Source of the DNA: an uncultured archaeon
GTDB lineage: Archaea > Iainarchaeota > Iainarchaeia > Iainarchaeales > CSSED10-239
Assembly (NCBI GenBank): GCA_964591795.1
Contig: CAZQEL010000002.1
Coordinates: 6,312-38,311, forward strand
DNA: 32,000 nt
Direction: 5' to 3'
Of the stretch, positions 1,876 through 25,514 are shown piece by piece. The stretch's first letter is position 1; every line of letters begins with the position of its first letter. The notes beneath the pieces are model-generated. The model was not told the DNA's origin. It worked only from the letters and a program-made list of their open reading frames with translations, and made no database searches. The translations under genes and the position numbers were made by a program.

Positions 1876-4341
1876 ATGAAAAATATAAATACGAAAAAAG
1901 TCATTGCTGGCGTTGCTGCATTAGGACTTTCTGCATTACTTGCAGGTTCCGTTGTTGCTGCTAACGTAGGTGCTGATAATTTCAGTATGAATATCACAAA
2001 AGACACAATGTTTAATAATGGTGTTCCTGCTGTTAGTGTTGTAGTTGGATCTATGGCACAACCAGTTGATGTAGTATGGGCTGGTAACATAGCTGCTGCA
2101 ATCGGAAAGAAAGCTTACACAACTGCAGGTACAGTTGGCGGAGCTGTTTTACAAGATGTAACAGTTGAAGTTGGTTCTTCAAGTTCTTCAACAATATCAG
2201 GTGATGGAAAATTAACTGATGATTGGACAATTGGTAGTACAAGTGTAACAGAAACAATAGATGATTCTGATTATTCATTACTTGGTGACTACGATGTATC
2301 TGTTGATGATGATATATTTGGTGATGATAGTATAAATGTAAAAGAATCTATTATATTAAAAGCAAATGTTTCTTTTGATGATGATAAAGATGTTGCTGAT
2401 TTAACTGCTGCAATACCTAAATCTGCTATAGAATACGCATTAGAATTTAATCCAGGTATTAATGATGATACAAATGATTCAGGAAGTCCAGATTTTAAAT
2501 TCAATTTAATGGGTAAACAATACACATTAGAAGATTATTCTAGTGGAACAATGACTTTAGTTCAAAATAAAGCTACAGTTCCTTACATGGTTGGAGATAC
2601 TTTTGAAATTGAAGGTTATACAATTGAAGTAAAAACAATCCTTGAAAAATCATCTGAGGGTGCAACTTACGAATCTGAAATGTCTATTAGTAAAGATGGT
2701 TCTGTATTAGCTACAAATATTTATGCTGATGGAGATAAAATTTTTGATGATTACTTAGAAATAGATACAGAAATAGATACAGTATATAATACTAGAGTAA
2801 CTGTAATTTCTGGAACTAGTGCTAGAGTTAAATTAAAAAGCGGACAAGTAATTAAAGATTTCCCTAATATCGGAGACGAATTATGGAAAGTTGCATTTAC
2901 TGGTTCTGATCCTGTTACAGTTATCACAATAACTAACGATGATTCAGATGTACAATGGAAAAATGAAGATGCATTAAGAGTTGGAGATTCAGTTGAATTA
3001 CCATTCGGATTTGCTAAAGTTGAATTTTTAGGTTTAACTAAAGAAGATTCAAAGACATTAACTGTTGAAGATGGTATGTTATCATGGACAGATTCATCAG
3101 ATGATGATCACTCAATATTTTTCTATGAACAAGATACTTCTGATTATGAAACAGGAGATAATTACACTACATCTGCTGAAATAGATGGTAAAAATCTTTA
3201 CTTCGATTTTAATACTACTGATGATCTGACTCAAGCAGATGTTGCAGAATCTGGTTATTTTACAGTACAATTAGAAGATGAAGATGGTAAATATTTATCA
3301 ACTACAGATTCATGGTCATGGGATTCTTTAGCAGCTCCAACAGCTACTGAAAAATTCTATTTTGATGGTGATGCGGTAGAGGATACTGCAACAGATTATG
3401 TTGGTTTCACAGATATAATTGTTCCATTATATAATGATGAATCAGTAAAAATTGCATATGGTGTCTATACTAAAGAAGTATCTGATGTAATTGAACAAAT
3501 TGCAATTTCATTAAAATCAACTGCAACAGGTAGTATAAACGCAAGTCCTGTTCAAAACTGGACTGTTGGAAAAACATATTACCAAATAGGTACAGATGAT
3601 TTAAATGTTTCAACTTACGTTGGTGTTTCTGATATATCTTCAATTACAGTTGCTGATGAAGATATGGATTCTATGTTTGAATTAGTTGTTACTGATAGTG
3701 TGGATACTTTTACAGCACATATTGATGCATACACTGGTGATTTAGTTAATACTGATGATTCAGATTATGATGGTGGATTAAATCAAGTTGTTTCTGCATC
3801 TGCTAATTTAGATCAAGAAAATTCAGACGATTTAACATGGGCTTATACTGCTTTCGGTACAAAGTACATGGTAGATGGTGGAATTTTTGAAGCTGAAATG
3901 CCAGAATCAAGACTTTACGGACAAATTTTCATTGGTGGAGGAATTTCTGAAGAAATGACTCTTAACGGTGGAGAATTAGTTTTAACTACTCCCGGTACAG
4001 TTGTTTCAACAGAAGACGGTATGGTTTCAGCTAAGTTAGTTTCTTCTAATGTTATAGGATCAGACGCAACTGTTGCTATGACTCCTGCTGCATGGAATGT
4101 AAACACACAAAGATTAGTATATCTTGACAATGAAGCTATGGTTCCAACTGGTGCTAAAATAATTGTTGGTGGACATTTAGTTAACTCTTTAGCTAACGGT
4201 GTTACAAACGATTACTTAACACAAGCTGGTCAATATGTTGTAGGTTCAGATGCTACTGGTAACGTTCTTGTTGCTGGTTACACTGCTGAAGATACAGCTG
4301 ACGCTGCAAAAGAATTAATAACTGTTATAGAAAACATGTAA
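1876..4341 (+). CDS. S-layer protein (Methanococcales-type N- and C-terminal blocks)
   Basis: The signal peptide is MKNINTKKVIAGVAALGLSALLAGSVVAANVGA. It is followed by VSVVVGSMAQPVDVVWAGNIAAAIGKK. The C-terminus carries KIIVGGHLVNSLA...VLVAGYTAEDTADAAKELI. These resemble the conserved S_layer_N and S_layer_C blocks of methanococcal S-layer proteins. The protein is very acidic, has no Cys and has many N-x-S/T sequons. A GGTGA Shine-Dalgarno lies 7-8 nt upstream of the ATG, and a T-rich tract follows the gene. Confidence 0.8.
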   Translation: MKNINTKKVIAGVAALGLSALLAGSVVAANVGADNFSMNITKDTMFNNGVPAVSVVVGSMAQPVDVVWAGNIAAAIGKKAYTTAGTVGGAVLQDVTVEVGSSSSSTISGDGKLTDDWTIGSTSVTETIDDSDYSLLGDYDVSVDDDIFGDDSINVKESIILKANVSFDDDKDVADLTAAIPKSAIEYALEFNPGINDDTNDSGSPDFKFNLMGKQYTLEDYSSGTMTLVQNKATVPYMVGDTFEIEGYTIEVKTILEKSSEGATYESEMSISKDGSVLATNIYADGDKIFDDYLEIDTEIDTVYNTRVTVISGTSARVKLKSGQVIKDFPNIGDELWKVAFTGSDPVTVITITNDDSDVQWKNEDALRVGDSVELPFGFAKVEFLGLTKEDSKTLTVEDGMLSWTDSSDDDHSIFFYEQDTSDYETGDNYTTSAEIDGKNLYFDFNTTDDLTQADVAESGYFTVQLEDEDGKYLSTTDSWSWDSLAAPTATEKFYFDGDAVEDTATDYVGFTDIIVPLYNDESVKIAYGVYTKEVSDVIEQIAISLKSTATGSINASPVQNWTVGKTYYQIGTDDLNVSTYVGVSDISSITVADEDMDSMFELVVTDSVDTFTAHIDAYTGDLVNTDDSDYDGGLNQVVSASANLDQENSDDLTWAYTAFGTKYMVDGGIFEAEMPESRLYGQIFIGGGISEEMTLNGGELVLTTPGTVVSTEDGMVSAKLVSSNVIGSDATVAMTPAAWNVNTQRLVYLDNEAMVPTGAKIIVGGHLVNSLANGVTNDYLTQAGQYVVGSDATGNVLVAGYTAEDTADAAKELITVIENM

Positions 4342-4515: not shown

Positions 4516-4872
4516 ATGTTTACAAAAAAACAAAAAGGTCAAGTTTCAGTTGAAATGTTAATTATTTTAGGTGTAATTATACTTGTTGCTGTTGTTTTTG
4601 TATCATATTATTTATCAGTAATAAATAAAAATATAGATAAAACAAGTAATGTTCCTACTGGAGTTCAAGTTAATAATTTAATAGAAAATAGTTTTAATAA
4701 TCCTAACCTTACTTCTGCACCTACAAGTTTAGCTACTTGTGGAAATGGAACTATTGATCCTATGGAAGTTTGTGATTATCTTATTTTCCCATTTGGATTA
4801 ACTTGCGATAATATAACTGGTGCAGGTACAACTTTAGTGTGTACTGATTGTCTTGAAATTACTTGTACTTAA
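4516..4872 (+). CDS. archaeal type IV pilin (class III signal peptide, Epd-like) with a C-terminal Cys-rich CGNG...C-D unit
   Basis: The N-terminus MFTKKQKG|QVSVEMLIILGVIILVAVVF matches the prepilin pattern (K-G, then Gln at +1, then a hydrophobic helix). The C-terminus is CGNGTIDPMEVCDY...LTCDNITGAGTTLVCTDCLEITCT. Its N-terminal 45 aa are paralogous to the 30756-31922 protein. Confidence 0.8.
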   Translation: MFTKKQKGQVSVEMLIILGVIILVAVVFVSYYLSVINKNIDKTSNVPTGVQVNNLIENSFNNPNLTSAPTSLATCGNGTIDPMEVCDYLIFPFGLTCDNITGAGTTLVCTDCLEITCT

Positions 4873-5302
4873 ATTTTAATTATTGCTTTTTATTAAAAAA
4901 AGAAAAATCGTTTTTACTAATATTAGTTTTAATCAAATAACTAGTTTATTAAAATTAGTAATTGTTAAAAAAAAGTAATTGTGAAGAATAAAATTATTTT
5001 TCTTCTTCAACTCTATTTTCTTTTATTCTCTTCATTGTTCTTGGAGAGAATGATTCTTTATACCATTTTTTCCAAATGATTAAAATATCATCATAATTAG
5101 TTTTACCGTGTTCTTGAAGATATTCTTCTTTTATAAGTAATAATTTATTATGTGCATAAACTGTGTTTTTAGCTTCCAAAAGTTCAATACAATCATTTTC
5201 GTTTGCAAAATCTACTTGGTATTTTTTTTCTTTTGCACGCATACTGATGTTATTCCACATCTCTTCAATTGTCATACCAGTAAGTTTTGATATTTTTGAA
5301 AA
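4752..5302. repeat. left copy of the ~550-bp direct repeat (pilin 3' end, spacer and ATPase 3' end)
   Basis: It aligns by eye with 7077-7626. Bases 4877-5245 look identical to 7201-7569. The differences cluster in the pilin-tail block and at 5246 and 5254. Confidence 0.9.
4994..5302 (-). pseudogene. orphan 3' fragment of the secretion ATPase gene (copy of the tail of 7318-9633)
   Basis: It translates to ...FSKISKLTGMTIEEMWNNISMRAKEKKYQVDF...ENRVEEEK. This is the last ~100 aa of the full ATPase with one substitution (MWNN versus MWDN). Homology stops abruptly at 5302. Confidence 0.85.
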
Positions 5303-5387
5303 TATAGGTGTAAATTCCTTTTTTATTAACTTATATTTATATTTTTCCTTTTCTTGACTAGTAATACCTCCAAAAAACTCCTTTTTC

Positions 5388-5447: not shown

Positions 5448-6785
5448 ATGCTTGACTGGAAAAACATAATTTTACAAAATCCTTGGTGGCAAGGTAAAGA
5501 AGATTATGATATTTCTAAACTTAAAAATAATAATTATTCTATTTCTAGAAAAAGTATACTTATAGCTCCTAATAAAATATATTTAATTAAAGGACCTAGA
5601 AGAGTTGGTAAAACTATTTTTTTAAAAAAAATAGCACAAGAGAATCCAAATATCTCTACTTATATAAATTTTGACACTCTTTTAAATGTTAGAATTTCTG
5701 AATTAATTAAAACTATCGAACATGATATTAAAATAAACAATAAAAAAATAATTTTACTAGATGAAATACAATCTTTAAAAGAAGGATGTTTATTTTTAAA
5801 ATCTTTAAAAGATCTAAACTTATTAAAAGATGTTTGTGTAATTGTTACTGGTTCTGATCCAAGAGCAATTGATCGTTGTAAACAATATTTAATAGGTAGA
5901 TCTGAAAAACTAAATATAATGGCTCCTTTAACTTTTAGACAATATATTTTAACTATTTTAAAAAAAGAAAATTTAATTTTGTTTAATATTATAAATAACA
6001 TTACAATTGATGCTAGTGAACCAAATTTAGATATATTTAAAAAATATAAATTAATAGAAAATTATTTTGAAGAAATTAATGATTATTTTTTTAATTATCT
6101 TTTAACAGGTGGGTTTCCTGAAGCTATTAATTCTTATTTTGAAAAAGGGTATGTAGATGAAAAGTATTATGAAGATATTGTTGAAAAAATATTTGAAAAA
6201 ATGGATAAATCTAAATCAATATCTATTTTAAAAGTTATTATTGATTCTTTATCAGGATCTATTAAATATTCTACCATTGAACAAAAAACAGGATATTCTA
6301 GAGATACAATTAAAAGTTATTTAAAAACTTTATCTGAGCTTCTAGTTGTTTTTGAAGTTAAAGAAAATAGTTCTTCAATTCTTAAAAAGTTTTATATAAA
6401 AGATCCTTTTATTATCCATTCAATTGCTAATTTATATAAAAATACAAATTATTTTGATCAAAGTAAACAACTTTTATTTAATGAACAAAAATTAGGTGTT
6501 TTTGCAGAAAATATTGTTGCTAGTCATTTACATAATCTTTACAATCTCGATCTTTCTTATTATAACGTAGATAAAAAAGAAATTGATTTTATTGTTTTAA
6601 AAAAAGCAATAGAAGTAAAATATAGGAACACATTAGTTAAACCAAATTATGTTGATTTTATAGATGAATACTTGATATTATCAAAATCAGTTTTGCCACC
6701 CGGAGATGTTATGATAGAAAATAGATTAGTTATACCTGTTTGTATTTTTTTAAGTCTTTTGGAAGTTCCAAAATATTTTTTGTGA
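5448..6785 (+). CDS. AAA+ ATPase (AAA_14) with a DUF4143 / PD-(D/E)xK-like C-terminal domain
   Basis: The N-terminus carries NPWWQGKEDYD. Walker A is GPRRVGKT and Walker B is ILLDEIQ. The C-terminus KEIDFIVLKKAIEVKY gives a D...E-x-K nuclease-like motif. This is the typical archaeal/bacterial ATP-binding protein of the DUF4143 family. Confidence 0.8.
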   Translation: MLDWKNIILQNPWWQGKEDYDISKLKNNNYSISRKSILIAPNKIYLIKGPRRVGKTIFLKKIAQENPNISTYINFDTLLNVRISELIKTIEHDIKINNKKIILLDEIQSLKEGCLFLKSLKDLNLLKDVCVIVTGSDPRAIDRCKQYLIGRSEKLNIMAPLTFRQYILTILKKENLILFNIINNITIDASEPNLDIFKKYKLIENYFEEINDYFFNYLLTGGFPEAINSYFEKGYVDEKYYEDIVEKIFEKMDKSKSISILKVIIDSLSGSIKYSTIEQKTGYSRDTIKSYLKTLSELLVVFEVKENSSSILKKFYIKDPFIIHSIANLYKNTNYFDQSKQLLFNEQKLGVFAENIVASHLHNLYNLDLSYYNVDKKEIDFIVLKKAIEVKYRNTLVKPNYVDFIDEYLILSKSVLPPGDVMIENRLVIPVCIFLSLLEVPKYFL

Positions 6786-7076
6786 TTTTAAATGGGTTTA
6801 AATTCAATTGTATTTAAAATATTTTTTTTATTTTTTTTATTAATAAACTGATTAGTTGAATTATTATAATACTTAATTTTAGGAGTAATTAGTATTTGTT
6901 CATAATAATGAATAAAAAATAGTGTATTTTGTTCACCCCTCTTGATCAATTTTAAAACTTTTTGTTTATATATATCTTTTATAGATTAAGATATATTGGT
7001 AAAACTGTTCTGTTATTACAATTATTTTTAATTTAATAGATTTTGATTTAATTTCAACTAATTATATAAATAAAGT

Positions 7077-7626
7077 TATTGATCCTATGGAAGTTTGTGA
7101 TGATACTAATTTTCCAATAGGTATTACTTGTACTTATGTTGTTAGTTCTGGTACAACTTTAGTGTGTACTGATTGTCTAGAAATTACTTGTAGTTAATTA
7201 TAATTATTGCTTTTTATTAAAAAAAGAAAAATCGTTTTTACTAATATTAGTTTTAATCAAATAACTAGTTTATTAAAATTAGTAATTGTTAAAAAAAAGT
7301 AATTGTGAAGAATAAAATTATTTTTCTTCTTCAACTCTATTTTCTTTTATTCTCTTCATTGTTCTTGGAGAGAATGATTCTTTATACCATTTTTTCCAAA
7401 TGATTAAAATATCATCATAATTAGTTTTACCGTGTTCTTGAAGATATTCTTCTTTTATAAGTAATAATTTATTATGTGCATAAACTGTGTTTTTAGCTTC
7501 CAAAAGTTCAATACAATCATTTTCGTTTGCAAAATCTACTTGGTATTTTTTTTCTTTTGCACGCATACTTATGTTATCCCACATCTCTTCAATTGTCATA
7601 CCAGTAAGTTTTGATATTTTTGAAAA
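7077..7626. repeat. right copy of the ~550-bp direct repeat
   Basis: See 4752-5302. This copy is continuous with the full-length ATPase gene. Confidence 0.9.
7081..7197 (+). pseudogene. promoter-less 3' fragment of a variant pilin gene
   Basis: It reads DPMEVCDDTNFPIGITCTYVVSSGTTLVCTDCLEITCS*. The full pilin reads DPMEVCDYLIFPFGLTCDNITGAGTTLVCTDCLEITCT*. The ends are conserved and the central 16 aa differ. The frame is open back to 7003, but there is no Met and no class III signal peptide. Confidence 0.8.
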
Positions 7627-9633
7627 GATTTCAGAATCTTTAAGTGCATCTTCATTTAAAACAAGTGTATCTTTAGCAGCATCGTATTCCATTAAATTAA
7701 GAATACCTCCTTCTGATTCTGGATCTGTATTCCAATGTTTACGTACTTCTGTTATTTGAACAATTCTTTTATGACTCTTAAGTGAGCCTTTAAATCTAAT
7801 TGGCTTAGCTACAACAATAATATCTGTTGCTTTAAATGAAGTGGTAGGTACTCCTAAATCATTAACTACACGATCCCACACAGCATAAGCTGAGTCAGCG
7901 TGTATGGTTCCCATAACTACATTCCCTGCAGCACCAATTCTCATAGCTTCATATAGTACTTTTGCTTCAACTGACCTTACTTCTCCTACAATTAATGCAG
8001 AATCACCTAATCTAAGAGCTGTTCTAAGTGCATCTTCAGGTTTCATTTCAGTTGTTGCTGTTTCTCCAGTTCCACCAATGGCTGATCTTGTTTTAAGTCT
8101 TTGAGCATTAAAACCAATATCTTTCATATACATTATTGGTAGTTCTAAAGTGTCTTCTTGAACAATTATTCTTGCATTTTGTAAAATTTCAAGCATTAAA
8201 GCAGTCATTAATGATGTTTTTCCTGCACCACGTGATCCTGCTACTAAAAGAGTTGAATTGTTATCAATAAAAAAACTTAATAAACCAGCTGCTAATGGGT
8301 TTAATGAGTTTACATTTATTAGTTGTGGAAGTGTCCACGGTGTATCCTTATGTAATCTAAATGCAAATGCAATACCGTCTGTTGCTAAAGGATGACCAAT
8401 AATTGCAATTCTTGTGTTTAAATCAGGCATATCAAAATCAAGAACAGGATGTGCATCATCAAATGGTCTTCCTGACATTGCTCTTATTTTTCCAACAAAA
8501 CTTTCAGCGTCTTTTTCTGGATAGTGTATGTTTGTTTGACACTGTCCATATTTTGAATGAACTACGTATATTGGTTTTGCTCCTAGTGGAGAATCTAAAT
8601 ATACATCAGTTAATTGTCTATCTGATAATAATAATTCTAAGATACCATAACCAATAGTGTATCTTGTAACTATTTCTGATAGTGAATAAACATCATCAGG
8701 TGATAATTCAATACTATATTTTTTAGCAATATCAATTATTGTTGATTGATATATTCTTTGGAAATATTTTCTAGTACTCTCTCCTGTTGTAAGAGTTACT
8801 TTTCCTGGTTTGTAATTAGCAACAGTATCTTTTGTTTTTGTTAATACAAAATAATGATCTGGAGACAATGTATATTCAGGTGGATTAATTAAATAAATAT
8901 ATTCTACTTTTTCTGGATGTCTAAATATTTGTACTGATGTGTTAAGTACTTGGTATTCATCAATTAACTCTAAAGTATCCATGTCTTTAAAAGTTAATTT
9001 TGATCCAATAAATGCTGGTTTTATTTCTACATCAAATATTGTTCTATAGATGTCTGTAACTTCAGAAAAATCAGTTATTTTTAATAAAATTGGTTTTATT
9101 TTTTTTAAAAATGTAGTTTTTTCATACATTTCTTTAAGTCTTAAAAGATGTTTTGTATTTTGTGTAAAACAGATTTCACAAGGTTGACCGTTTCTCTCTT
9201 GTGCTCGGTTTTTTGTATTTTCTATTTCTTTTAAAAGGCTAATGTATGAAGCTATTGGATCATAGGACAATAATTCTTTTGCAAATTTAATAATGTTATT
9301 ATGTCTTTCTGGATAACATTCATCACAGTCAATTTCTTTAACACCTAAGTGTTGAGATACCCATACTGCTCTATTTTCAAACTCTAAAAGTAAATTCACC
9401 ATTTCTTTTAAATATTTTGTTTGTTCTTCATTATAATTTCTTTCATAAACTTCAGCTAATATAATTTCATCAGCATCAACAGTTTCTAGTATTTTCATTG
9501 CATGATATCTACATCTAGGATCTTCAGCAATGGATGTATTATAAGGGCAATTTCTACAATCAAAAACTAGTTTTTTTTTAGAGCCTTCTGTTGTAACAAC
9601 ATAATCTCCAACTGTGAATTTTCCTATTTTCAT
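7318..9633 (-). CDS. type II/IV secretion (FlaI/VirB11/PilB superfamily) ATPase, extended 771-aa form
   Basis: Walker A is VAGSRGAGKTSL and the Walker B region is RIIVQEDTLEL. It also carries ALIVGEVRSVEA...GNVVMGTIHADSA. The N-terminal ~170 aa hold Cys pairs (CRNCPYN...CRYH, CDECYPERH, CEICF). A ~100-aa C-terminal extension is also present. Confidence 0.85.
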   Translation of the reverse strand: MKIGKFTVGDYVVTTEGSKKKLVFDCRNCPYNTSIAEDPRCRYHAMKILETVDADEIILAEVYERNYNEEQTKYLKEMVNLLLEFENRAVWVSQHLGVKEIDCDECYPERHNNIIKFAKELLSYDPIASYISLLKEIENTKNRAQERNGQPCEICFTQNTKHLLRLKEMYEKTTFLKKIKPILLKITDFSEVTDIYRTIFDVEIKPAFIGSKLTFKDMDTLELIDEYQVLNTSVQIFRHPEKVEYIYLINPPEYTLSPDHYFVLTKTKDTVANYKPGKVTLTTGESTRKYFQRIYQSTIIDIAKKYSIELSPDDVYSLSEIVTRYTIGYGILELLLSDRQLTDVYLDSPLGAKPIYVVHSKYGQCQTNIHYPEKDAESFVGKIRAMSGRPFDDAHPVLDFDMPDLNTRIAIIGHPLATDGIAFAFRLHKDTPWTLPQLINVNSLNPLAAGLLSFFIDNNSTLLVAGSRGAGKTSLMTALMLEILQNARIIVQEDTLELPIMYMKDIGFNAQRLKTRSAIGGTGETATTEMKPEDALRTALRLGDSALIVGEVRSVEAKVLYEAMRIGAAGNVVMGTIHADSAYAVWDRVVNDLGVPTTSFKATDIIVVAKPIRFKGSLKSHKRIVQITEVRKHWNTDPESEGGILNLMEYDAAKDTLVLNEDALKDSEIFSKISKLTGMTIEEMWDNISMRAKEKKYQVDFANENDCIELLEAKNTVYAHNKLLLIKEEYLQEHGKTNYDDILIIWKKWYKESFSPRTMKRIKENRVEEEK

Positions 9634-9783
9634 GATTTATCTTATTTTTATTTATTTCTAAAATATTATATACTAAAATAGTGGTCTATAGATTATTTAA
9701 ATCTTTTTATTTATTGTTTGTGAAATTCAATTTATTTTATTATGTGTTAATTTTAGATTGAAAAATATTCTTTTGAGCTAAAG

Positions 9784-9833
9784 TATAACTTACCCTGGAT
9801 ATTAAGAAATTGGTTTGTCCAGGGTAAGTTATA
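9784..9833. repeat. hairpin element, copy 1 (16-bp perfect arms TATAACTTACCCTGGA / TCCAGGGTAAGTTATA, 18-nt loop)
   Basis: The arms are 9784-9799 and 9818-9833. It is a GC-rich core in AT-rich DNA, just upstream of the Fic ATG at 9860. Confidence 0.8.
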
Positions 9834-9859
9834 TAAATCCTTTCACTCTATATATTTAT

Positions 9860-10843
9860 ATGGCATATATATATGTTAAGCAAATTGGTTCTAAAAAATA
9901 TTATTATTTAAGAGTTGATAAAAGGGTTAATGGTAAGAAAATCGTAAAAGATATTGCCTATCTTGGTTCTGATTTATCTAAAGTAGATGTAAAAAAACTA
10001 ATTAGTTCTTCTAAATATGGTAAGGAGATAACTAAAAGTTATAAACAAATAAATCATCTAATTACTTCTAACTATTATTATAGGAAAGCAGAGCTTTTAA
10101 AATATAAAAAAAACACTTATTTAACTAAAGAACAATTAATACGATTAAATGCTATTAGTTTTCATTTTTCTTCAAATTTTAAAAAATTGCATCAATTAAC
10201 TGCTGCTGATTTTTTAAATAATTTTGTAATTTCTTATACTTATAATACTACTTCAATTGAAGGAAATACAATTGCTCTGGCTGATGTTAAAAAAATATTA
10301 ACTGATGATTCAATTTATTTAAAAAATAAAACTTTAAGAGAGATTTATGATTTAAGAAATACAAAAGATACTTTTAATTATATTTTTAAAAACACTCTAA
10401 AATTAAGCCTTAAGGTTATTATTGATATTCATAAAAAATTAATGAAAGATGTTGATGATAGAGTGGGTTTTAGAAATTTTGATGTTAGAGTTTTTAAATC
10501 TCATTTTAAGTCTTCTCTTTATTTTAGGATTGATAAGGAAATTAACGATTTACTTTCTTGGTTTAATATATCTAAAGAAAATATTTTTGTAAGGGCAGTT
10601 ATTTTTCATCATAAATTTGAAAAGATACATCCTTTTGGAGATGGTAATGGACGGACAGGAAGAATGTTATTAAATTTAATTTTATTAAATAATAATTTAC
10701 CTCCTTTAATTATTACTAAGAAAAACAAAAAATTTTATTTTGATTCACTTTCAATTGCAGATAAAAAAGAAGATTATTCATTTTTAATTTCTTTTTTATT
10801 AGATGAGTATGAAAAAGGTTATTGGCAACATTTTATTTCTTAA
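9860..10843 (+). CDS. Fic/DOC family protein (class II, internal inhibitory helix)
   Basis: The Fic motif HPFGDGNGRTGR fits HxFx[DE]GNGRxxR. An upstream TTSIEGN fits the [ST]xxxE[GN] auto-inhibition motif. The start is moved to ATG 9860 (MAYIYVKQIGSKKYYYLR) because the TTG at 9815 lies inside the hairpin. Confidence 0.85.
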   Translation: MAYIYVKQIGSKKYYYLRVDKRVNGKKIVKDIAYLGSDLSKVDVKKLISSSKYGKEITKSYKQINHLITSNYYYRKAELLKYKKNTYLTKEQLIRLNAISFHFSSNFKKLHQLTAADFLNNFVISYTYNTTSIEGNTIALADVKKILTDDSIYLKNKTLREIYDLRNTKDTFNYIFKNTLKLSLKVIIDIHKKLMKDVDDRVGFRNFDVRVFKSHFKSSLYFRIDKEINDLLSWFNISKENIFVRAVIFHHKFEKIHPFGDGNGRTGRMLLNLILLNNNLPPLIITKKNKKFYFDSLSIADKKEDYSFLISFLLDEYEKGYWQHFIS

Positions 10844-10860
10844 TAAGGATTGTGTGTTTT

Positions 10861-10899
10861 TACCCTGGATAAACTTATTTTTTAAATGTCCAGAGTAAG
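10861..10899. repeat. hairpin element, copy 2 (TACCCTGGATA ... TGTCCAGAGTAAG)
   Basis: It has the same 11-nt left core, TACCCTGGATA, as copy 1. Its right arm TGTCCAGAGTAAG has one G-to-A change, and the loop is 19 nt. It starts 18 nt after the Fic stop. Confidence 0.7.
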
Positions 10900-10936
10900 A
10901 TTGTAATTTTTGTCCTTTTTTTAAATTAACATTTAA

Positions 10937-10966
10937 AGATATATTTTAGATATCTTTTAGATATCT
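10937..10966. promoter_or_regulatory. three 8-bp palindromic boxes (AGATATAT, AGATATCT, AGATATCT) phased at 11 bp; probable RHH operator
   Basis: The boxes start at 10937, 10948 and 10959. They lie 30-60 nt upstream of the antitoxin ATG at 10996. Confidence 0.5.
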
Positions 10967-10995
10967 TTGAATATGTGTTGTTTTATAATTATATT

Positions 10996-11247
10996 ATGGA
11001 TGAATTTATAGTTAGATTAAAAGGTAAGCCAAAAGAATACCTTGATATTCTACTTAAGGAAGGATATTTTAATACCAAAAGTGAAATTGTAAGACATGGT
11101 ATTTTAGCTCTTGCTAATAAATACAATGTAGAACAAGATTATGTTGTAGATAAAGATGAACTAATAAAAGTAGGTAAGGCTGTAAAAAGAGAATTAAGAG
11201 ATATTCAAAAAAAAAAAGTAAATTATATACTGAAGATGAATTTTTAG
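10996..11247 (+). CDS. ribbon-helix-helix (CopG/ParD-like) antitoxin
   Basis: MDEFIVRLKGKPKEYLDILLKEGYFNTKSEIVRHGILALANKY has the beta-strand, helix, helix pattern of RHH proteins. It lies directly upstream of a RelE-like ORF. The C-terminal frame is uncertain because of an A11 tract at 11207-11217. Confidence 0.6.
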   Translation: MDEFIVRLKGKPKEYLDILLKEGYFNTKSEIVRHGILALANKYNVEQDYVVDKDELIKVGKAVKRELRDIQKKKVNYILKMNF

Positions 11248-11288
11248 AATTATTTCCACATTTAAAAAAAGTAAAATAGTGGTATTTA

Positions 11289-11510
11289 TTGTATGATTAT
11301 AAGTTAACTGAATCATTTAAAAAAGATTTTGAAAAATTAGATGTTTCTTTTCAAATTATTATTTTTAAAAAAATAAAATATATTCTTTCGAATGATATTT
11401 CAAGAAAGCATTTAAAATATGGTTATCCTTATTTTGTATTAAAACTTAACATTTCTTCTAGACTTGTTTGTATGATTAAAAATGGTGTTCTTCTTTATAA
11501 TTTATTTTAA
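11289..11510 (+). CDS. relE: RelE/ParE-superfamily toxin-like protein
   Basis: This is a 73-aa protein. YKLTESFKKDFEKLDVSFQIIIFKKIKYIL...RLVCMIKNGVLLYNLF follows the RelE layout (Y-x-L...F-x-K-D-x-x-K-L...R-L-V/I-Y...). It pairs with an upstream RHH gene. It has a TTG start and a short C-terminus. Confidence 0.5.
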   Translation: MYDYKLTESFKKDFEKLDVSFQIIIFKKIKYILSNDISRKHLKYGYPYFVLKLNISSRLVCMIKNGVLLYNLF

Positions 11511-11543
11511 GAAAACTTATTGTTTTAAGTTTGTTAAAATTAA

Positions 11544-12674
11544 TTATTTTATTTTTTTAATAACTTCTTCGAAAAATAATTTAATTAAATAACCTAAACA
11601 AGGAGATGAGATGTAATTTGTGACTTCTGATATTTTTATCCATTTAAAATTAATGTGTGCTGGGATTTTTAGTTCTTCAGAATCTGTGGTAACATAGTAA
11701 TATTCAGTATATATTTTTTTAAATGTGTTTTCTGATTTTTCGTACCAGTGGTGGCAACCGCCCATTTTTTTTTCAATTATTTTTAAATTAGTAAGACCAG
11801 TTTCTAATTCAATTTCTTTTTTAATAACTTTAAGTGATTTTTTTATTTGTTTTTCTGATGGTTTTCCTTTTGGAAAACTCCAAAAACCACAACTGGTTTT
11901 ATTGTCTTCAAGTAAGAGTATTTTTTTAATTTTAGGATTGTATATTATTTTTCCTTTTGCATAATTAAATTTTATTTTTAATAATTTATTTTTTATATAT
12001 ATGTCTTCAAGATTTGTTTTATTTAGAGTTAATTCAAATTTTAAAATTTGATTTAAAATTATATCTTTATTAATTTTATTGTAATTTTTAATTTTTGAAA
12101 GCATTTTTTGTGTATCTTTAATATCTACTTTTAATTGATTTAAAAGTCTTGCATATTTATCTAAATTGTAATACATTTTATATTTGTTATTTTGAAAATA
12201 ATTTTCTAAAAACTCAATTCTTATTTTTGAAAAAACACTTGTAGTTTCAAATGAGAATTCAAAATAGGTTTTTGATTTAAGTAGGTTTAAAAGATCATCT
12301 TCAATTCTGTACCCATATATAAAAAAGCTATTAAGTATGAAATCATAAAGATAAGGGTAAAATAGATCTGTGGATATATTTTTTAAATTATTTTTATCTT
12401 GTGCATTTATTTTAAATTCAATTTCTATTTGGTATTTCTTACTTACATCTTCTTTAATTTTAGCTAAAGCATTAATATCTGTTTTTTTAAGTTCTTTATT
12501 TTTTGTAAAAACCATAACATTAAGGTCACTTTCTTTAGGAGTTACTTCTCCTCTTGCAAAAGAACCGTGAATATATACTGATTTTATAAATGGAAATTTT
12601 TTCTTATTAAAAATTGTTTTTAAATAGTTTGTTAATGTATAATATTCTTCTAGATTTTTATTTATAATATCCAT
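11544..12674 (-). CDS. nucleotidyltransferase (MNT/KNTase-like), helical region and Nudix-like domain fusion protein
   Basis: The N-terminus YIHGSFARGEVTPKESDLNVMVF is an NTase G-S...D-x-[DN] motif in which the second Asp is Asn. The C-terminus GFWSFPKGKPSEKQIKKSLKVIKKEIELETGL resembles a Nudix box (W-x-F-P-K-G...[RK]-E-U-x-x-E-x-G-U) with non-canonical positions. Confidence 0.6.
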   Translation of the reverse strand: MDIINKNLEEYYTLTNYLKTIFNKKKFPFIKSVYIHGSFARGEVTPKESDLNVMVFTKNKELKKTDINALAKIKEDVSKKYQIEIEFKINAQDKNNLKNISTDLFYPYLYDFILNSFFIYGYRIEDDLLNLLKSKTYFEFSFETTSVFSKIRIEFLENYFQNNKYKMYYNLDKYARLLNQLKVDIKDTQKMLSKIKNYNKINKDIILNQILKFELTLNKTNLEDIYIKNKLLKIKFNYAKGKIIYNPKIKKILLLEDNKTSCGFWSFPKGKPSEKQIKKSLKVIKKEIELETGLTNLKIIEKKMGGCHHWYEKSENTFKKIYTEYYYVTTDSEELKIPAHINFKWIKISEVTNYISSPCLGYLIKLFFEEVIKKIK

Positions 12675-16597: not shown

Positions 16598-17533
16598 TAA
16601 TATTCTTTCAACTTGTTCTTTATTATTTATTATTTCTAGTACCCCTTTACTTAAACTTCTTGGACTAAAGTTAGGGTATACTGATTTTAATCTTTGAATG
16701 TCTGTTCTTTTCTCAAAAGTACCATCTGGTTTAGATGCATCCCATTTAATTTCTCCAGACCAACCAATTTCTTTTCTAATTATTTCTGCAATTTCTTTTA
16801 TTGAATAATCAAAACCTGTGCCTATGTTTATTATTTGTTCTGAAGAATAATTATTCATTAAATACACTAATGCATCTGCACAATCATCACTGTATAATGC
16901 TTCACGTCTAGGTGTACCTGTTCCCCATAGCATTACTTCGTTACCTTTTTCTTTTGCAAGTAATATTTTTTTAATTAATCCTGGAATCATATGCCCATTT
17001 TCAAGATCATATGTGTCATTAAATCCATAAAGGTTAGTTGGCATAGCACAAATTGTATCAATATTATATTGTTTTCTATATAATTGGCATGCAACTATTC
17101 CAGTTCCTTTAGCAACTGCATATCCTTTGTTTGTTTCTTCAAGTTTACCTGCCATGAATCTATCTTCGTTTATTGGTTGAGGATTTTCTCTAGGGTATAT
17201 ACATGTAGACCCAGTGAATAATACTTTTGCTTTAGGGCAATTATTTTTAGTCGCTTCTAATAAATTTAAAATCATTGTTGTATTTTGATATAAAAAATCA
17301 GCTGGTCTTTGACTATTTCCTTGTATTCCTCCAACAAGACCTGCAACCATGAAAATATACTCTGGGGTTTCTTTTTTTAAATATTCTTCAATTTCTGATT
17401 TTTCTAATAAATTAAGTTCCTTACTTCTTGGTTTTAGAATATTATTGTGTCCTTGTTTTGTTAATGTTCTATATACTGCACTTCCAAGTAATCCATTCCC
17501 ACCTAAAAGTAATATTTTTGATTCTGTTTTCAT
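16592..17533 (-). CDS. fcl: GDP-L-fucose synthase (GDP-4-keto-6-deoxy-D-mannose 3,5-epimerase/4-reductase)
   Basis: It has the Rossmann motif LLLGGNGLLGSAV and the catalytic YAVAK (YxxxK). It also has PTNLYG and a PRREALYSDD-type block typical of Fcl/WcaG. It lies directly downstream of gmd. Confidence 0.9.
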   Translation of the reverse strand: MKTESKILLLGGNGLLGSAVYRTLTKQGHNNILKPRSKELNLLEKSEIEEYLKKETPEYIFMVAGLVGGIQGNSQRPADFLYQNTTMILNLLEATKNNCPKAKVLFTGSTCIYPRENPQPINEDRFMAGKLEETNKGYAVAKGTGIVACQLYRKQYNIDTICAMPTNLYGFNDTYDLENGHMIPGLIKKILLAKEKGNEVMLWGTGTPRREALYSDDCADALVYLMNNYSSEQIINIGTGFDYSIKEIAEIIRKEIGWSGEIKWDASKPDGTFEKRTDIQRLKSVYPNFSPRSLSKGVLEIINNKEQVERILE

Positions 17534-24738: not shown

Positions 24739-25514
24739 TTTTTAGTAAACCAGAAAAGGCCTGTTCCATAATTCCTATTTTTGGTTCTATATTTATCCTG
24801 GAGTTTTCCATTATAAATATATTTTTCTTCTACTAATTTGCAATTATGAAATTTTGTTAATATATATTCTTTTGTAAATGCTCTGTGTGCATTAAAATAA
24901 ATAGTGTTTTCATTATGCACAGGGACACTTATAAATATATTTCCTTTTTTTGATGTTACTCTTATAATTTCTTTAATTGCTTTTTCACTCCCTAATTCAT
25001 CTAATTTATCTCCATATCTTCCTAATCCAATATGTTCTATGACACAAAGACTAGAAATTGATTTTATGGAATTATTTTTAAATGGAAGAGTTGTAATATC
25101 TCCTTTTATGAAATTTAAATTTTTTAATTTTATTGGTAATGGTCTTATATCAACCATATATGTTTTTGTGAATTGAGATATTATGCCAATTGTTTTTGCA
25201 TTACTACCGACATCGTAATGTTCTTTTGGATTAAGTTCAAATATTTTTTTTGCAGCCCATGTATCTTGATAAAAATAGTCTATGGCCAAAGGAGTTTCTT
25301 TAGTATTATCATTTATACAAGGAAAAAGGTATTTTATTTTAAACTCTTTATTTTTTTTAGTTAATATTAAATCTTTTAAATATTTACTATTTTTTTTTAA
25401 ATAAGTAATTATTTTAAATTTAAAATTTTCTTTTATTGACAGATATATAAAATATGTGGATAATAATATTTTTGAGTTTTCAATTTTTGATTTAATTTTA
25501 TATTTTATTTTCAT
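24735..25514 (-). CDS. SAM-dependent methyltransferase (DUF268/Methyltransf_11-like)
   Basis: It carries YDVGSN...MVDIRP, GDITTLPF, SLCVIEHIGLGRYGD and KKGNIFISVP. Its 3' end overlaps the GT11 gene end by 4 nt (convergent). Confidence 0.65.
   Translation of the reverse strand: MKIKYKIKSKIENSKILLSTYFIYLSIKENFKFKIITYLKKNSKYLKDLILTKKNKEFKIKYLFPCINDNTKETPLAIDYFYQDTWAAKKIFELNPKEHYDVGSNAKTIGIISQFTKTYMVDIRPLPIKLKNLNFIKGDITTLPFKNNSIKSISSLCVIEHIGLGRYGDKLDELGSEKAIKEIIRVTSKKGNIFISVPVHNENTIYFNAHRAFTKEYILTKFHNCKLVEEKYIYNGKLQDKYRTKNRNYGTGLFWFTKN

What the first reader, a model, noticed from the sequence alone, without database searches (positions are those of the whole stretch)
9784..10899. Fic gene bounded by two copies of the same GC-rich hairpin element (cassette-like)
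Copy 1 (9784-9833) has perfect 16-bp arms, TATAACTTACCCTGGA / TCCAGGGTAAGTTATA, around an 18-nt loop. Copy 2 (10861-10899) repeats the core TACCCTGGATA ... TGTCCAGAGTAAG with a 19-nt loop and one arm mismatch. The two copies are in direct orientation and enclose exactly one gene, the class II Fic gene at 9860-10843. The core is conspicuously GC-rich for this genome, and I found it nowhere else in the window. The outer ends of copy 1 read GTATAAC...GTTATAT. Each is one mismatch from the integron attC R''/R' consensus (RYYYAAC / GTTRRRY), but copy 2 lacks this. Possible roles are a recombination site delimiting a mobile gene cassette, a paired operator, or an RNA-level element (5' leader structure plus terminator).
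Basis: partly seen in the sequence, partly recalled or inferred. Interest (0 to 1): 0.7.

Follow-up and report, generated by a model that had tools for sequence, protein, structure and literature searches.

The report
Promoter palindrome flanking archaeal Fic gene
The two hairpins are copies of a 40-base palindrome that sits in the promoter of a Fic enzyme gene found across tiny DPANN archaea. In some lineages a second copy follows the gene, and close relatives lack Fic and keep exactly one palindrome at that spot, so Fic is gained or lost as a unit there.

Summary
Both hairpins are at the stated coordinates, bracket only the Fic gene, and exceed chance. The integron attC reading does not hold. 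The GTATAAC/GTTATAT ends are not conserved in relatives, the stem is perfect, and no integrase lies in the 32 kb.

Comparative data give a different picture. All 16 Fic lineages examined (44-100% protein identity) carry TTACCC-N26-28-GGGTAA, 38-40 bp in total. It ends 2-4 nt before the TATA box, about 26 nt upstream of the ATG, so GGGTAA sits where a BRE would be. Half-site sequence and total length are conserved, the spacer sequence is not, and inner arm positions change symmetrically. This is the signature of a dimer-binding operator, but no binding protein is identified.

Four related lineages, including the window, have a second copy 1-16 nt after the stop codon. Two syntenic relatives (about 91% and 73-83% nucleotide identity) lack Fic and keep exactly one palindrome at that place. 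The mechanism is unresolved: recombination or slippage between copies, or a dedicated recombinase. Nothing comparable turned up in four literature searches. Interest is moderate.

The parts
9784..9833 (.). Palindrome copy 1. The arms are 9784-9799 and 9818-9833. The clade-wide core is TTACCCTGGA (9790-9799) and TCCAGGGTAA (9818-9827). The loop is 9800-9817.
   Evidence: The core arms are identical in 14 other low-GC archaeal loci, while the adjacent Fic protein has diverged to 44-72% identity.
9822..9827 (+). GGGTAA, the promoter-proximal outer half-site. It lies at -38 to -33 relative to the Fic ATG, where an archaeal BRE would sit.
   Evidence: GGGTAA is followed after 2-4 nt by the TATA box in all 16 Fic lineages. 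No other gene start in the window has GGTAA next to a TATA box. The BRE assignment is an inference from position.
9830..9837 (+). TATATAAA, the putative TATA box of the Fic promoter. It is centred about 26 nt upstream of the ATG at 9860, which implies a leaderless or near-leaderless mRNA.
   Evidence: This block is conserved in alignment A3 and in the table. The transcription start site is inferred, not measured.
9860..10843 (+). Fic gene, 327 aa. It is a class II, FICD-like AMPylase with an N-terminal extension of about 100 aa (three long beta-strands plus helices).
   Evidence: Pfam PF02661 at 3e-21. PDB 5jj6/4u04 at 1e-20 to 1e-23. PADLOC SoFic and PDC-S04. 1687 homologues at E<=1e-20; the sources that name them mostly give archaea of the Woese-/Pace-/Nanoarchaeota groups. 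AF2 model of aa 1-100 has pLDDT 89.5, with no Foldseek PDB match below E = 0.5.
10860..10898 (.). Palindrome copy 2. Arms are 10860-10869 and 10889-10898 with one mismatch, and the loop is 19 nt. It starts 16 nt after the Fic stop codon.
   Evidence: Equivalent second copies lie 1-5 nt after the stop codon in L079, L038 and L080. It is 89% identical over 46 nt to the solo palindrome of L102.
10916..10922 (+). A run of seven T, 17 nt after copy 2. It is a candidate archaeal oligo-T terminator for the Fic transcript.
   Evidence: Read from the sequence. The terminator function is an inference.

Best explanation
The hairpin is a double-stranded DNA site, not an attC or an RNA element. It is an ancient palindromic cis-element built into the promoter of a Fic (FICD-like AMPylase) gene that is widespread in DPANN archaea.

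The family-wide form is TTACCC-N26-28-GGGTAA. In the window's clade it is TTACCCTGGA(CA)-N14-17-(TG)TCCAGGGTAA. The promoter-proximal half-site occupies the BRE position directly upstream of the TATA box.

The most likely function is an operator. A dimeric DNA-binding protein would contact two half-sites about three helical turns apart across an AT-rich spacer. In doing so it would control access of TFB/TBP to the Fic promoter. That protein is unidentified; it could be a host regulator or the Fic protein's own N-terminal domain.

In one Fic subclade (window, L079, L080, L038) a second copy lies just past the stop codon. The two 40-bp copies behave as short repeats. They stay similar to each other, their loops flip, and recombination or replication slippage between them removes Fic plus one copy, or re-inserts it. 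A solo palindrome is left behind.

Shown: the conservation, the position, the second copies and the presence/absence polymorphism. Inferred: protein binding, repression, and the recombination mechanism.
For: 1. All 16 Fic lineages examined (44-100% identity) carry the palindrome, with GGGTAA 2-4 nt before the TATA box and the ATG about 30 nt further on. Total length is fixed at 38-40 bp and spacer sequence is free.

2. The arms are conserved in sequence. The 10-bp arms are identical in the upstream copies of 9 of the 10 lineages carrying the TGGA-type palindrome, spanning both Fic clades at 44-48% protein identity; L038's upstream copy has one mismatch.

3. Inner arm positions change symmetrically in distant lineages: TGG/CCA becomes TTT/AAA in L088 and L095. 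Overall 91.4% of cells are paired against 85.5% in shuffles (0 of 500 shuffles reach it), and 16 cells change on both sides against 7.3 expected.

4. GGGTAA next to a TATA box is unique to this promoter within the window, so it is not the organism's generic BRE.

5. Second copies occur right after the stop codon in four lineages that group together in a quick NJ tree with short internal branches, alongside single-copy L061. Within-locus loop identity is 0.80-0.95 in three of them, against a background of 0.57 +/- 0.09. Orientation is direct in L079 and L038 and inverted in L080.

6. There are two solo palindromes at syntenic sites that lack Fic. L012 has Pus10-palindrome-Ogg, against L080 with Ogg-pal-Fic-pal-Pus10; the flanks are 88.5-91.3% nt identical. 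L102 has ATPase-palindrome-NTase against the window.

7. The exact-match scan found only one copy in each species-representative assembly it hit, including a complete 840-kb genome. It is therefore not a dispersed repeat.
Against: No binding protein is identified. The N-terminal domain of Fic has no detectable DNA-binding fold and no Pfam match.

Solo copies between convergent genes (L012, L019) have no promoter to regulate, yet they keep perfect arms. This set was ascertained by exact-match search, so that observation is biased.

How the downstream copy first arose is unexplained.

Fic sits in unrelated genomic contexts in different lineages. Simple loss cannot explain this; it needs either rearrangement or real mobility.

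In the window itself the similarity between the two loops (0.63) is within background.
Confidence: 0.55

Rival explanations
1. Mobile gene cassette. The palindrome is primarily a recombination site, att-like and comparable to integron attC or to Xer-dependent pdif modules. A recombinase encoded elsewhere uses it. Fic plus one palindrome excises as a circle and integrates at solo palindromes, which act as landing pads.
For: Palindrome-Fic-palindrome occurs in four lineages. Solo palindromes sit exactly at the site that Fic occupies in 73-91% identical relatives. Fic lies in unrelated contexts, often between convergent genes or in variable spots. Fic and its neighbours match defence-island gene families. 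In AR20 (L092), Fic is bracketed by a repeated tRNA-3'-end-like GTCTCCCACA plus a copy of the promoter.
Against: No integrase or transposase was found in the 32-kb window. The 8-13.5 kb relatives were not systematically searched, but none was noted in their gene tables. Most Fic loci (12 of 16 lineages) have only the upstream copy, at a fixed distance from the TATA box, which a pure att site would not require. The spacer is 12-21 nt and variable, unlike the 6-8-bp identical spacers of tyrosine-recombinase sites. The two loops at one locus resemble each other and the local solo copy, not a foreign donor. There were no hits in viral contigs.
Confidence: 0.25
2. Target-site duplication. A promoter-plus-Fic segment was inserted by staggered cuts at the two outer edges of a pre-existing palindrome, duplicating the whole 40-bp site. 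This would be formally like repeat duplication in CRISPR spacer integration or casposon insertion.
For: The repeated unit is essentially the palindrome itself, give or take 1-3 nt. The copies are near-identical in L038 (18 of 19 loop positions) and L080 (18 of 20). The solo copies in L012 and L102 would be the unfilled targets.
Against: No Cas1-like or other integrase was found. The upstream palindrome is conserved with Fic across the whole family, including single-copy loci, so it travels with the gene rather than being a target. The loops of L079, in a different genomic context, resemble those of the window and L102 (0.70-0.75). The inverted loops in L080 and the window need an extra flipping step.
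Confidence: 0.05
3. RNA-level element: a 5' leader structure (copy 1) and a 3' terminator or stability hairpin (copy 2) of the Fic mRNA.
For: Both copies can fold. Copy 2 lies in the likely 3' UTR, 17 nt before a run of seven T.
Against: Copy 1 ends 2 nt upstream of the TATA box in every lineage, so it should not be in the Fic transcript. The arm sequence itself is conserved, not just the pairing. Mismatches are C.A on one strand in some copies and on the other strand in others. Archaeal termination uses oligo-T and does not need hairpins (established knowledge). Downstream copies lack a consistent T-run. Rfam gave no hit at E<=1.
Confidence: 0.05
4. Integron attC site of a chromosomal cassette array or a CALIN (cluster of attC sites lacking an integrase).
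For: The ends of copy 1 (GTATAAC/GTTATAT) are one mismatch from RYYYAAC/GTTRRRY. Archaeal integrons exist, including in Nanoarchaeota (PMC9668308).
Against: Those ends are not conserved in any relative and are absent from copy 2. The stem is perfect, with no extrahelical bases. The length of 38-50 bp is below my recalled usual attC range of 57-141 bp. Here the sequence is conserved between genomes, whereas attCs conserve structure. The site is tied to the 5' promoter side of the gene rather than its 3' end. There is no intI in the window.
Confidence: 0.03
5. Chance palindromes, or a generic dispersed intergenic repeat (REP/MITE) or terminator.
For: The same 20 specified bases also occur in many high-GC bacterial contigs, which look like chance matches or ordinary hairpins. 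A longer palindrome with the same core is clustered in some 41-45% GC contigs (L042, L048, L069).
Against: 0 of 100 shuffles reproduce the window count. In the ~24-34% GC, largely archaeal contigs the palindrome is tied to Fic in at least 10 independent lineages. The exact-match scan found only one copy per genome, including the complete Forterrea genome.
Confidence: 0.02

Closest known systems
Palindromic operators overlapping BRE/TATA at archaeal promoters (for example sites of Lrp/AsnC-, TrmB- or MDR1-type regulators). This comparison is from established knowledge and was not tested here.
   Same: Dyad symmetry, a fixed position against the BRE/TATA, half-site sequence conserved while the spacer is free, constant overall length, and a single copy per promoter in most genomes.
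   Different: The half-sites are unusually far apart, about 32 bp centre to centre. The arms are long enough (10-16 bp) to extrude as a hairpin. No cognate regulator is known. A second copy lies at the 3' end of the gene in some lineages, and solo copies lie away from any promoter.
Integron gene cassettes and attC sites, including archaeal integrons (Ghaly et al. 2022, PMC9668308)
   Same: A single gene is bounded by imperfect-palindrome sites, and the gene is present or absent as a unit between close relatives.
   Different: No conserved R''/R' boxes, no extrahelical bases, and a shorter site. The sequence is conserved between genomes. The site is on the promoter side and travels with the gene. 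There is no array and no IntI.
pdif (Xer) modules of Acinetobacter plasmids and other elements that exploit Xer recombination (from established knowledge)
   Same: One or a few genes are flanked by two copies of a short palindromic recombination site, in direct or inverted orientation, with no recombinase inside the module.
   Different: dif-type sites are 11-6-11 bp, whereas this site has a 12-21-nt variable spacer. No link to XerA was shown.
Solo LTRs, and deletion between short direct repeats stimulated by hairpin-forming sequences (from established knowledge)
   Same: Two flanking copies collapse to one and remove the intervening gene. Flipping of a loop between inverted arms is a known homoplastic event for hairpin loops.
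   Different: The repeats are only about 40 bp and are themselves palindromes with a presumed regulatory role. There is no retroelement.
SoFic-type single-gene anti-phage defence Fic proteins and FICD/HYPE class II AMPylases
   Same: The enclosed gene matches PADLOC SoFic and PDC-S04 and FICD structures, and has the class II inhibitory helix motif and the catalytic motif.
   Different: It has a distinct N-terminal domain of about 100 aa with three beta-strands and no structural match. It scores far below the NCBIfam cut-off for SoFic (43.5 against 550 bits). Its function in DPANN archaea is untested.

Membership tests
Integron attC site | Conserved R'' (RYYYAAC) and R' (GTTRRRY) core sites at the outer ends | tested here: not met
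   Only copy 1 of the window approximates them, with one mismatch each. In 24 other copies the flanks vary (for example AGT...GAT, AAC...ACT, CAT...TAA), and copy 2 lacks them.
Integron attC site | Imperfect stem with extrahelical bases and an unpaired central spacer that mark the recombinogenic bottom strand | tested here: not met
   Copy 1 is a perfect 16-bp stem. The other copies have perfect 10-15-bp stems or a single mismatch on varying strands.
Integron attC site | Structure conserved and sequence variable between cassettes; located at the 3' end of the cassette ORF; arrays of two or more cassettes | tested here: not met
   The arm sequence is identical across genomes. The conserved copy is 5' of the gene and abuts its TATA box. 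No arrays were seen.
Integron attC site | IntI integrase nearby or in the genome | tested here: inconclusive
   No Phage_integrase or other recombinase domain was found in the 29 of the 43 ORFs of at least 70 aa in the 32-kb window (the non-overlapping gene candidates) that were scanned. The rest of the genome was not available.
Integron attC site | Hit to the IntegronFinder attC covariance model | not testable with these tools
   The model is not in Rfam. The Rfam scans gave nothing.
Transcription-factor operator at an archaeal promoter | Dyad-symmetric site at a fixed position relative to BRE/TATA of the regulated gene | tested here: met
   GGGTAA lies 2-4 nt upstream of the TATA box in 16 of 16 Fic lineages.
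Transcription-factor operator at an archaeal promoter | Half-site sequence and spacing conserved, spacer sequence free | tested here: met
   Total length is 38-40 bp in upstream copies (one solo copy is 41 bp). The outer hexamers of the upstream copies are invariant except for one base each in L082 and L038. Background loop identity is 0.57.
Transcription-factor operator at an archaeal promoter | An identified cognate DNA-binding protein and an effect on transcription | not testable with these tools
   The Fic N-terminal domain modelled well (pLDDT 89.5) but has no fold or Pfam match. No conserved neighbouring regulator was found.
Intrinsic terminator or RNA leader hairpin | Lies within the transcript; a GC-rich stem followed by a U-tract | tested here: not met
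   Copy 1 is upstream of the TATA box. Downstream copies have no consistent T-run.
REP/MITE-type dispersed repeat | Many copies per genome in unrelated intergenic regions | tested here: not met
   Two copies in 32 kb, both at Fic. One exact copy in the complete 840-kb Forterrea genome and one in each other species-representative assembly hit.
IS200/IS605-type element or PATE (subterminal hairpins) | TnpA (HUH) or TnpB gene, or many copies mobilised in trans | tested here: not met
   The only gene between the hairpins is Fic. No transposase domain was found in the window.
Xer/dif-type site (pdif module) | Two 11-bp arms separated by a 6-bp spacer | tested here: not met
   The arms are 10-16 bp and the spacer 12-21 nt.
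Class II Fic (FICD-like) protein (the enclosed gene) | Catalytic HxFx(D/E)GNGRxxR motif and an N-terminal inhibitory (S/T)xxxE(G/N) helix in the same chain | tested here: met
   HPFGDGNGRTGR and TTSIEGN are both present and conserved. Pfam Fic at 3e-21.

The most novel reading that the evidence does not exclude
DPANN archaea carry a minimal mobile gene cassette. A defence-type Fic gene moves between chromosomal sites and genomes by recombination at a 40-bp palindrome that doubles as its own promoter operator, with solo palindromes as landing pads or footprints. It would be catalysed in trans by an unrecognised recombinase, or conceivably guided by the Fic protein's own uncharacterised N-terminal domain. 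That would be an integron- or pdif-like cassette system with a new kind of site in Archaea.
Probability: 0.2. Interest if true: 0.75.

Novelty: new variant of a known kind. Interest (0 to 1): 0.5.

Why it matters
Almost nothing is known about gene regulation or gene flux in DPANN archaea, which are uncultivated and have tiny genomes. This finding gives a concrete, testable cis-element. It is a 40-bp palindrome whose arms stay identical while the adjacent protein diverges to 44% identity, and it is fixed at the BRE/TATA of a Fic AMPylase gene with about 1,700 detected relatives, mostly from DPANN archaea where named.

It also gives two natural before/after pairs showing that the same element marks the exact boundaries of Fic gain or loss. 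If the site binds Fic itself, that would reveal an autoregulated AMPylase with a new DNA-binding domain. If it is a recombination site, that would be a new cassette system in Archaea.

If it is only an operator plus slippage-prone repeats, it is a modest result. It would still be a useful example of how short regulatory palindromes drive presence/absence polymorphism of defence-type genes.

Tried and rejected
- attC/integron: rejected on the sequence features and the absence of an integrase.
- tRNA, tmRNA and Rfam families: nothing at gathering thresholds or at E<=1.
- Viral origin: no palindrome and no Fic relative in IMG/VR.
- Dispersed repeat or terminator: rejected because the exact-match scan found only one copy per genome. 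The high-GC bacterial hits look like chance or ordinary hairpins.
- Generic BRE of this organism: rejected, because no other promoter in the window has GGTAA next to a TATA box.
- Fic N-terminal domain as a known DNA-binding fold: the AF2 model is good, but Foldseek against PDB gives no hit below E = 0.5 (an integrase arm-type domain appears only at rank 38, E = 2.5), and Pfam gives nothing. This remains unsupported, not excluded.
- Replication origin (ORB-like TCCAGNGNAA resemblance, recalled from memory): set aside, because the site follows Fic through many unrelated contexts and no orc1/cdc6 gene is adjacent.
- CCWGG methylation or restriction site: set aside, because CCWGG is lost in the clade B variants (TTT/AAA).
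- Direction of the L012/L080 indel: the next Ogg relatives are only 60-65% identical, are not syntenic and have no palindrome, so insertion against deletion stays open.
- Right flank of the L102 solo copy against the window downstream of copy 2: not significantly alike (score 80, shuffles up to 89).
- Literature: no paper on this motif or on Fic promoters in DPANN archaea.
Full report
**1. Observation**

The window is about 24% GC and archaeal. It encodes RPA, MCM, a class III signal-peptide pilin and an S-layer protein.

Copy 1 (9784-9833) has perfect 16-bp arms and an 18-nt loop. Copy 2 (10860-10898) has 10-bp arms with one mismatch and a 19-nt loop.

The 10-mer TTACCCTGGA, allowing one mismatch, occurs five times: the four arms and one lone half-site at 24793. 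Chance expectation is 1.03, and 0 of 100 shuffles reached 5. Copy 1 folds far better than shuffles (z = -5.9). Copy 2 is weak on its own.

The only gene between the copies is a 327-aa Fic gene at 9860-10843. Evidence: Pfam 3e-21; FICD-like against PDB; class II TTSIEGN and HPFGDGNGRTGR motifs.

The stated 'direct orientation' cannot be upheld. The arms are self-complementary. The loops align somewhat better inverted (I7; 0.63 against 0.39), but that is within the background for AT-rich loops.

**2. The palindrome belongs to the Fic promoter**

Three contigs with the identical Fic protein were the same strain and uninformative.

I scanned public collections for TTAC[CY]CTGGA-N14-24-TCCAGRGTAA. 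This gave 21 genome loci and 54 metagenome loci, and none in viral contigs. The high-GC bacterial hits look like chance or ordinary hairpins.

The ~24-34% GC hits, largely archaeal, share an AT-rich loop of 18-21 nt. In most of them a Fic homologue of 44-62% identity starts about 30 nt downstream of the right arm.

I also fetched Fic homologues directly. There are 1687 at E<=1e-20; the sources that name them mostly give Woese-, Pace- and Nanoarchaeota. This showed the same architecture in every lineage examined.

Clade A lineages and L055 have TTACCCTGGA(CA)...(TG)TCCAGGGTAA. More distant clade B lineages have variants:
- TTACCCTTTACAA-N12-TTGTAAAGGGTAA (L088)
- TTACCCTTT-N20-AAAGGGTAA (L095)
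- imperfect TTACCCCTTA...TAGAGGGTAA (L082, L092, L097)

Four features are constant:
- The outer hexamers are TTACCC and GGGTAA.
- The total length is 38-40 bp.
- A TATA box (TTATATA or TATATAAA) starts 2-4 nt after GGGTAA.
- The ATG lies about 26 nt after the centre of the TATA box.

GGGTAA therefore occupies the BRE position of a promoter for a leaderless or near-leaderless mRNA. This is an inference from position. No other promoter in the window has GGTAA next to its TATA box, so it is not the organism's generic BRE.

On an alignment of 25 copies, 91.4% of arm cells are complementary against 85.5% in shuffles (0 of 500 shuffles reach it). Two adjacent pairs change on both sides in five sequences.

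Three signals together point to a site read as duplex DNA by a symmetric dimer, that is, an operator: conserved half-site sequence, conserved length, and a free spacer. The symmetric changes are also compatible with hairpin or cruciform formation. The data do not separate the two.

**3. The second copy and the solo copies**

Four of the 16 lineages have a second palindrome 1-16 nt after the Fic stop codon: the window, L079 (its closest relative, 72% identity), L080 and L038. They group together in a quick NJ tree with short internal branches, with single-copy L061 among them.

The repeated unit is essentially the palindrome plus or minus 1-3 nt.

| Locus | Loop identity between the two copies | Orientation |
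|---|---|---|
| L079 | 0.80 | direct |
| L038 | 0.95 | direct |
| L080 | 0.90 | inverted |
| window | 0.63 | inverted |
| unrelated loci (background) | 0.57 +/- 0.09 | best of both |

Flipping of a loop between inverted arms is a known, recurrent event for hairpin loops (established knowledge). Orientation therefore carries little weight.

(a) L080 reads desulfoferrodoxin > Ogg > palindrome-Fic-palindrome < Pus10. The Iainarchaeum MAG contig L012 is collinear and 88.5-91.3% identical in nucleotide sequence. It has no Fic and exactly one palindrome, which fills the 48-bp gap between Ogg and Pus10.

(b) L102 is collinear with the window. The ATPase is 83% nt identical, RPA 79%, and the NTase 73% nt (65% aa). 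It has ATPase-(170 nt)-one palindrome-NTase and no Fic. Its palindrome matches window copy 2 directly (89% over 46 nt) and copy 1 in inverted orientation (79% over 53 nt).

A more distant collinear relative, L104, has no palindrome at all.

Other solo palindromes lie between convergent LeuRS-like and SOD genes in the complete Forterrea genome (L019/L071). Others lie 27 nt upstream of an unrelated 161-aa ORF (L043), and in L011, L028 and L035.

The exact-match scan found a single copy in each species-representative assembly it hit. The element is therefore not a dispersed repeat.

**4. Mechanism**

The steps that are shown: the palindrome is co-inherited with the Fic promoter, a subclade has a 3' copy, and Fic plus one copy is present or absent as a precise block with one palindrome left behind.

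The inferred steps: a dimeric protein binds the site and gates TFB/TBP access. The two copies interact by recombination or replication slippage, which would give homogenised loops, flipped loops, and deletion or re-insertion of Fic.

The window independently shows that insertion with flanking duplication happens in this genome. A direct duplication of about 580 bp (300 nt at 100% identity) brackets an AAA_14/DUF4143 gene at 5448-6785.

In AR20, Fic is bracketed by a repeated GTCTCCCACA (a tRNA-3'-end-like sequence) plus a copy of the promoter, GATTTATATAYTAGTT.

I cannot decide whether L012 and L102 are footprints of loss or unfilled targets. The next relatives are too distant.

The similarity of the L079 loops (in a different genomic context) to the window and L102 loops (0.70-0.75) weakly favours a palindrome that travels with Fic.

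**5. Rivals**

A dedicated att-type cassette system is the main rival (0.25). In its favour are the precise indels, the variable contexts and the defence-island flavour. Fic matches PADLOC SoFic and PDC-S04, AAA_14 matches PDC-S01, and the NTase-NUDIX gene matches PDC-S09 and PDC-S07. Against it: no recombinase was found, 12 of 16 lineages have one copy, the site is locked to the TATA box, and the spacer is long and variable.

Target-site duplication, an RNA leader or terminator, attC, and chance or REP are each unlikely, for the reasons given in their entries.

**6. Comparison with known systems and novelty**

The element works most like a promoter-overlapping palindromic operator. It fails every integron attC feature that could be tested with these tools, and it fails the definitions of dif, REP and IS200/605 elements.

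Four searches of the held library found no description of this motif or of Fic promoter elements in DPANN archaea.

I rate it a new variant of a known kind: an undescribed operator-like palindrome that also marks the boundaries of a one-gene gain/loss unit.

Interest is 0.5. The conservation pattern and the two empty-site pairs are clean and testable. The most exciting reading, a new archaeal cassette system, has only about 0.2 probability on present evidence.

Noticed in passing
window 4725-5305 and 7050-7630: A direct duplication of about 580 bp (300 nt at 100% identity, 4872-5171 = 7196-7495) brackets the AAA_14/DUF4143 ATPase gene at 5448-6785. The left copy holds a truncated 3' end of the T2SSE/FlaI-like ATPase (ORF 4994-5275, -). 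The right copy holds the intact gene (7318-9633, -). It looks like a single-crossover insertion-duplication of a 1.7-kb segment.
   Followed up: partly
window 10944-11510: A tandem TTTTAGATATC x2 (10944-10965) lies upstream of an RHH gene (10996-11247, weak RHH_8 match). A 73-aa ORF follows (11289-11510, faint YafQ-toxin match at E = 0.12). This may be a toxin-antitoxin pair with its own operator. Both genes are absent from the collinear relatives L102 and L104.
   Followed up: partly
window 5448-12674: Several genes here match candidate anti-phage defence families in PADLOC: AAA_14/DUF4143 (PDC-S01), Fic (SoFic, PDC-S04) and NTase-NUDIX (PDC-S09, PDC-S07). The region has the character of a variable defence island.
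   Followed up: no
L092 (archaeon GW2011_AR20, CP010426) 2858-2991 and 4036-4158: The Fic palindrome abuts a tRNA-3'-end-like sequence (GGTTCGAATCCTGTCTCCCACA) that ARAGORN did not call. After Fic, GTCTCCCACA, a degenerate left arm and the promoter GATTTATATAYTAGTT are repeated. Fic is therefore bracketed by a decayed duplication of 70-130 bp.
   Followed up: partly
L048 617-1054, L042 241-501, L069 1080-1116: Contigs of 41-45% GC carry one to four copies (clustered in L048 and L042) of a longer palindrome, AATACC..(G)TTACCCTGGA-N16-20-TCCAGGGTAAC.., with the same 10-bp core. This is a different repeat family of unknown origin.
   Followed up: no
L080 4231-4845 versus L012: There is a second indel between the 91%-identical genomes. 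Two small genes (92 and 112 aa) between desulfoferrodoxin and Ogg are present in L080 and absent in L012, with no obvious flanking repeat.
   Followed up: partly
window 9860-10159 (Fic aa 1-100): The N-terminal domain is conserved across the family (M.YIY.K....YYYLR....K..KD.AYLG). It is predicted confidently as three long beta-strands plus helices, and has no match in PDB by fold or in Pfam.
   Followed up: partly
L043 2867-2935: The same palindrome with a GAT flank lies 27 nt upstream of the ATG of an unrelated 161-aa ORF with no Pfam match, next to a HerA-like ATPase gene and a tRNA-Ser. It may be a second gene under the same site, or a footprint.
   Followed up: partly
window 24793-24802 and 16640-16678: There is a lone half-site TTATCCTGGA with no partner, and a loose TACCC-N29-GGGTA match inside the epimerase gene. 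Both are probably chance.
   Followed up: no
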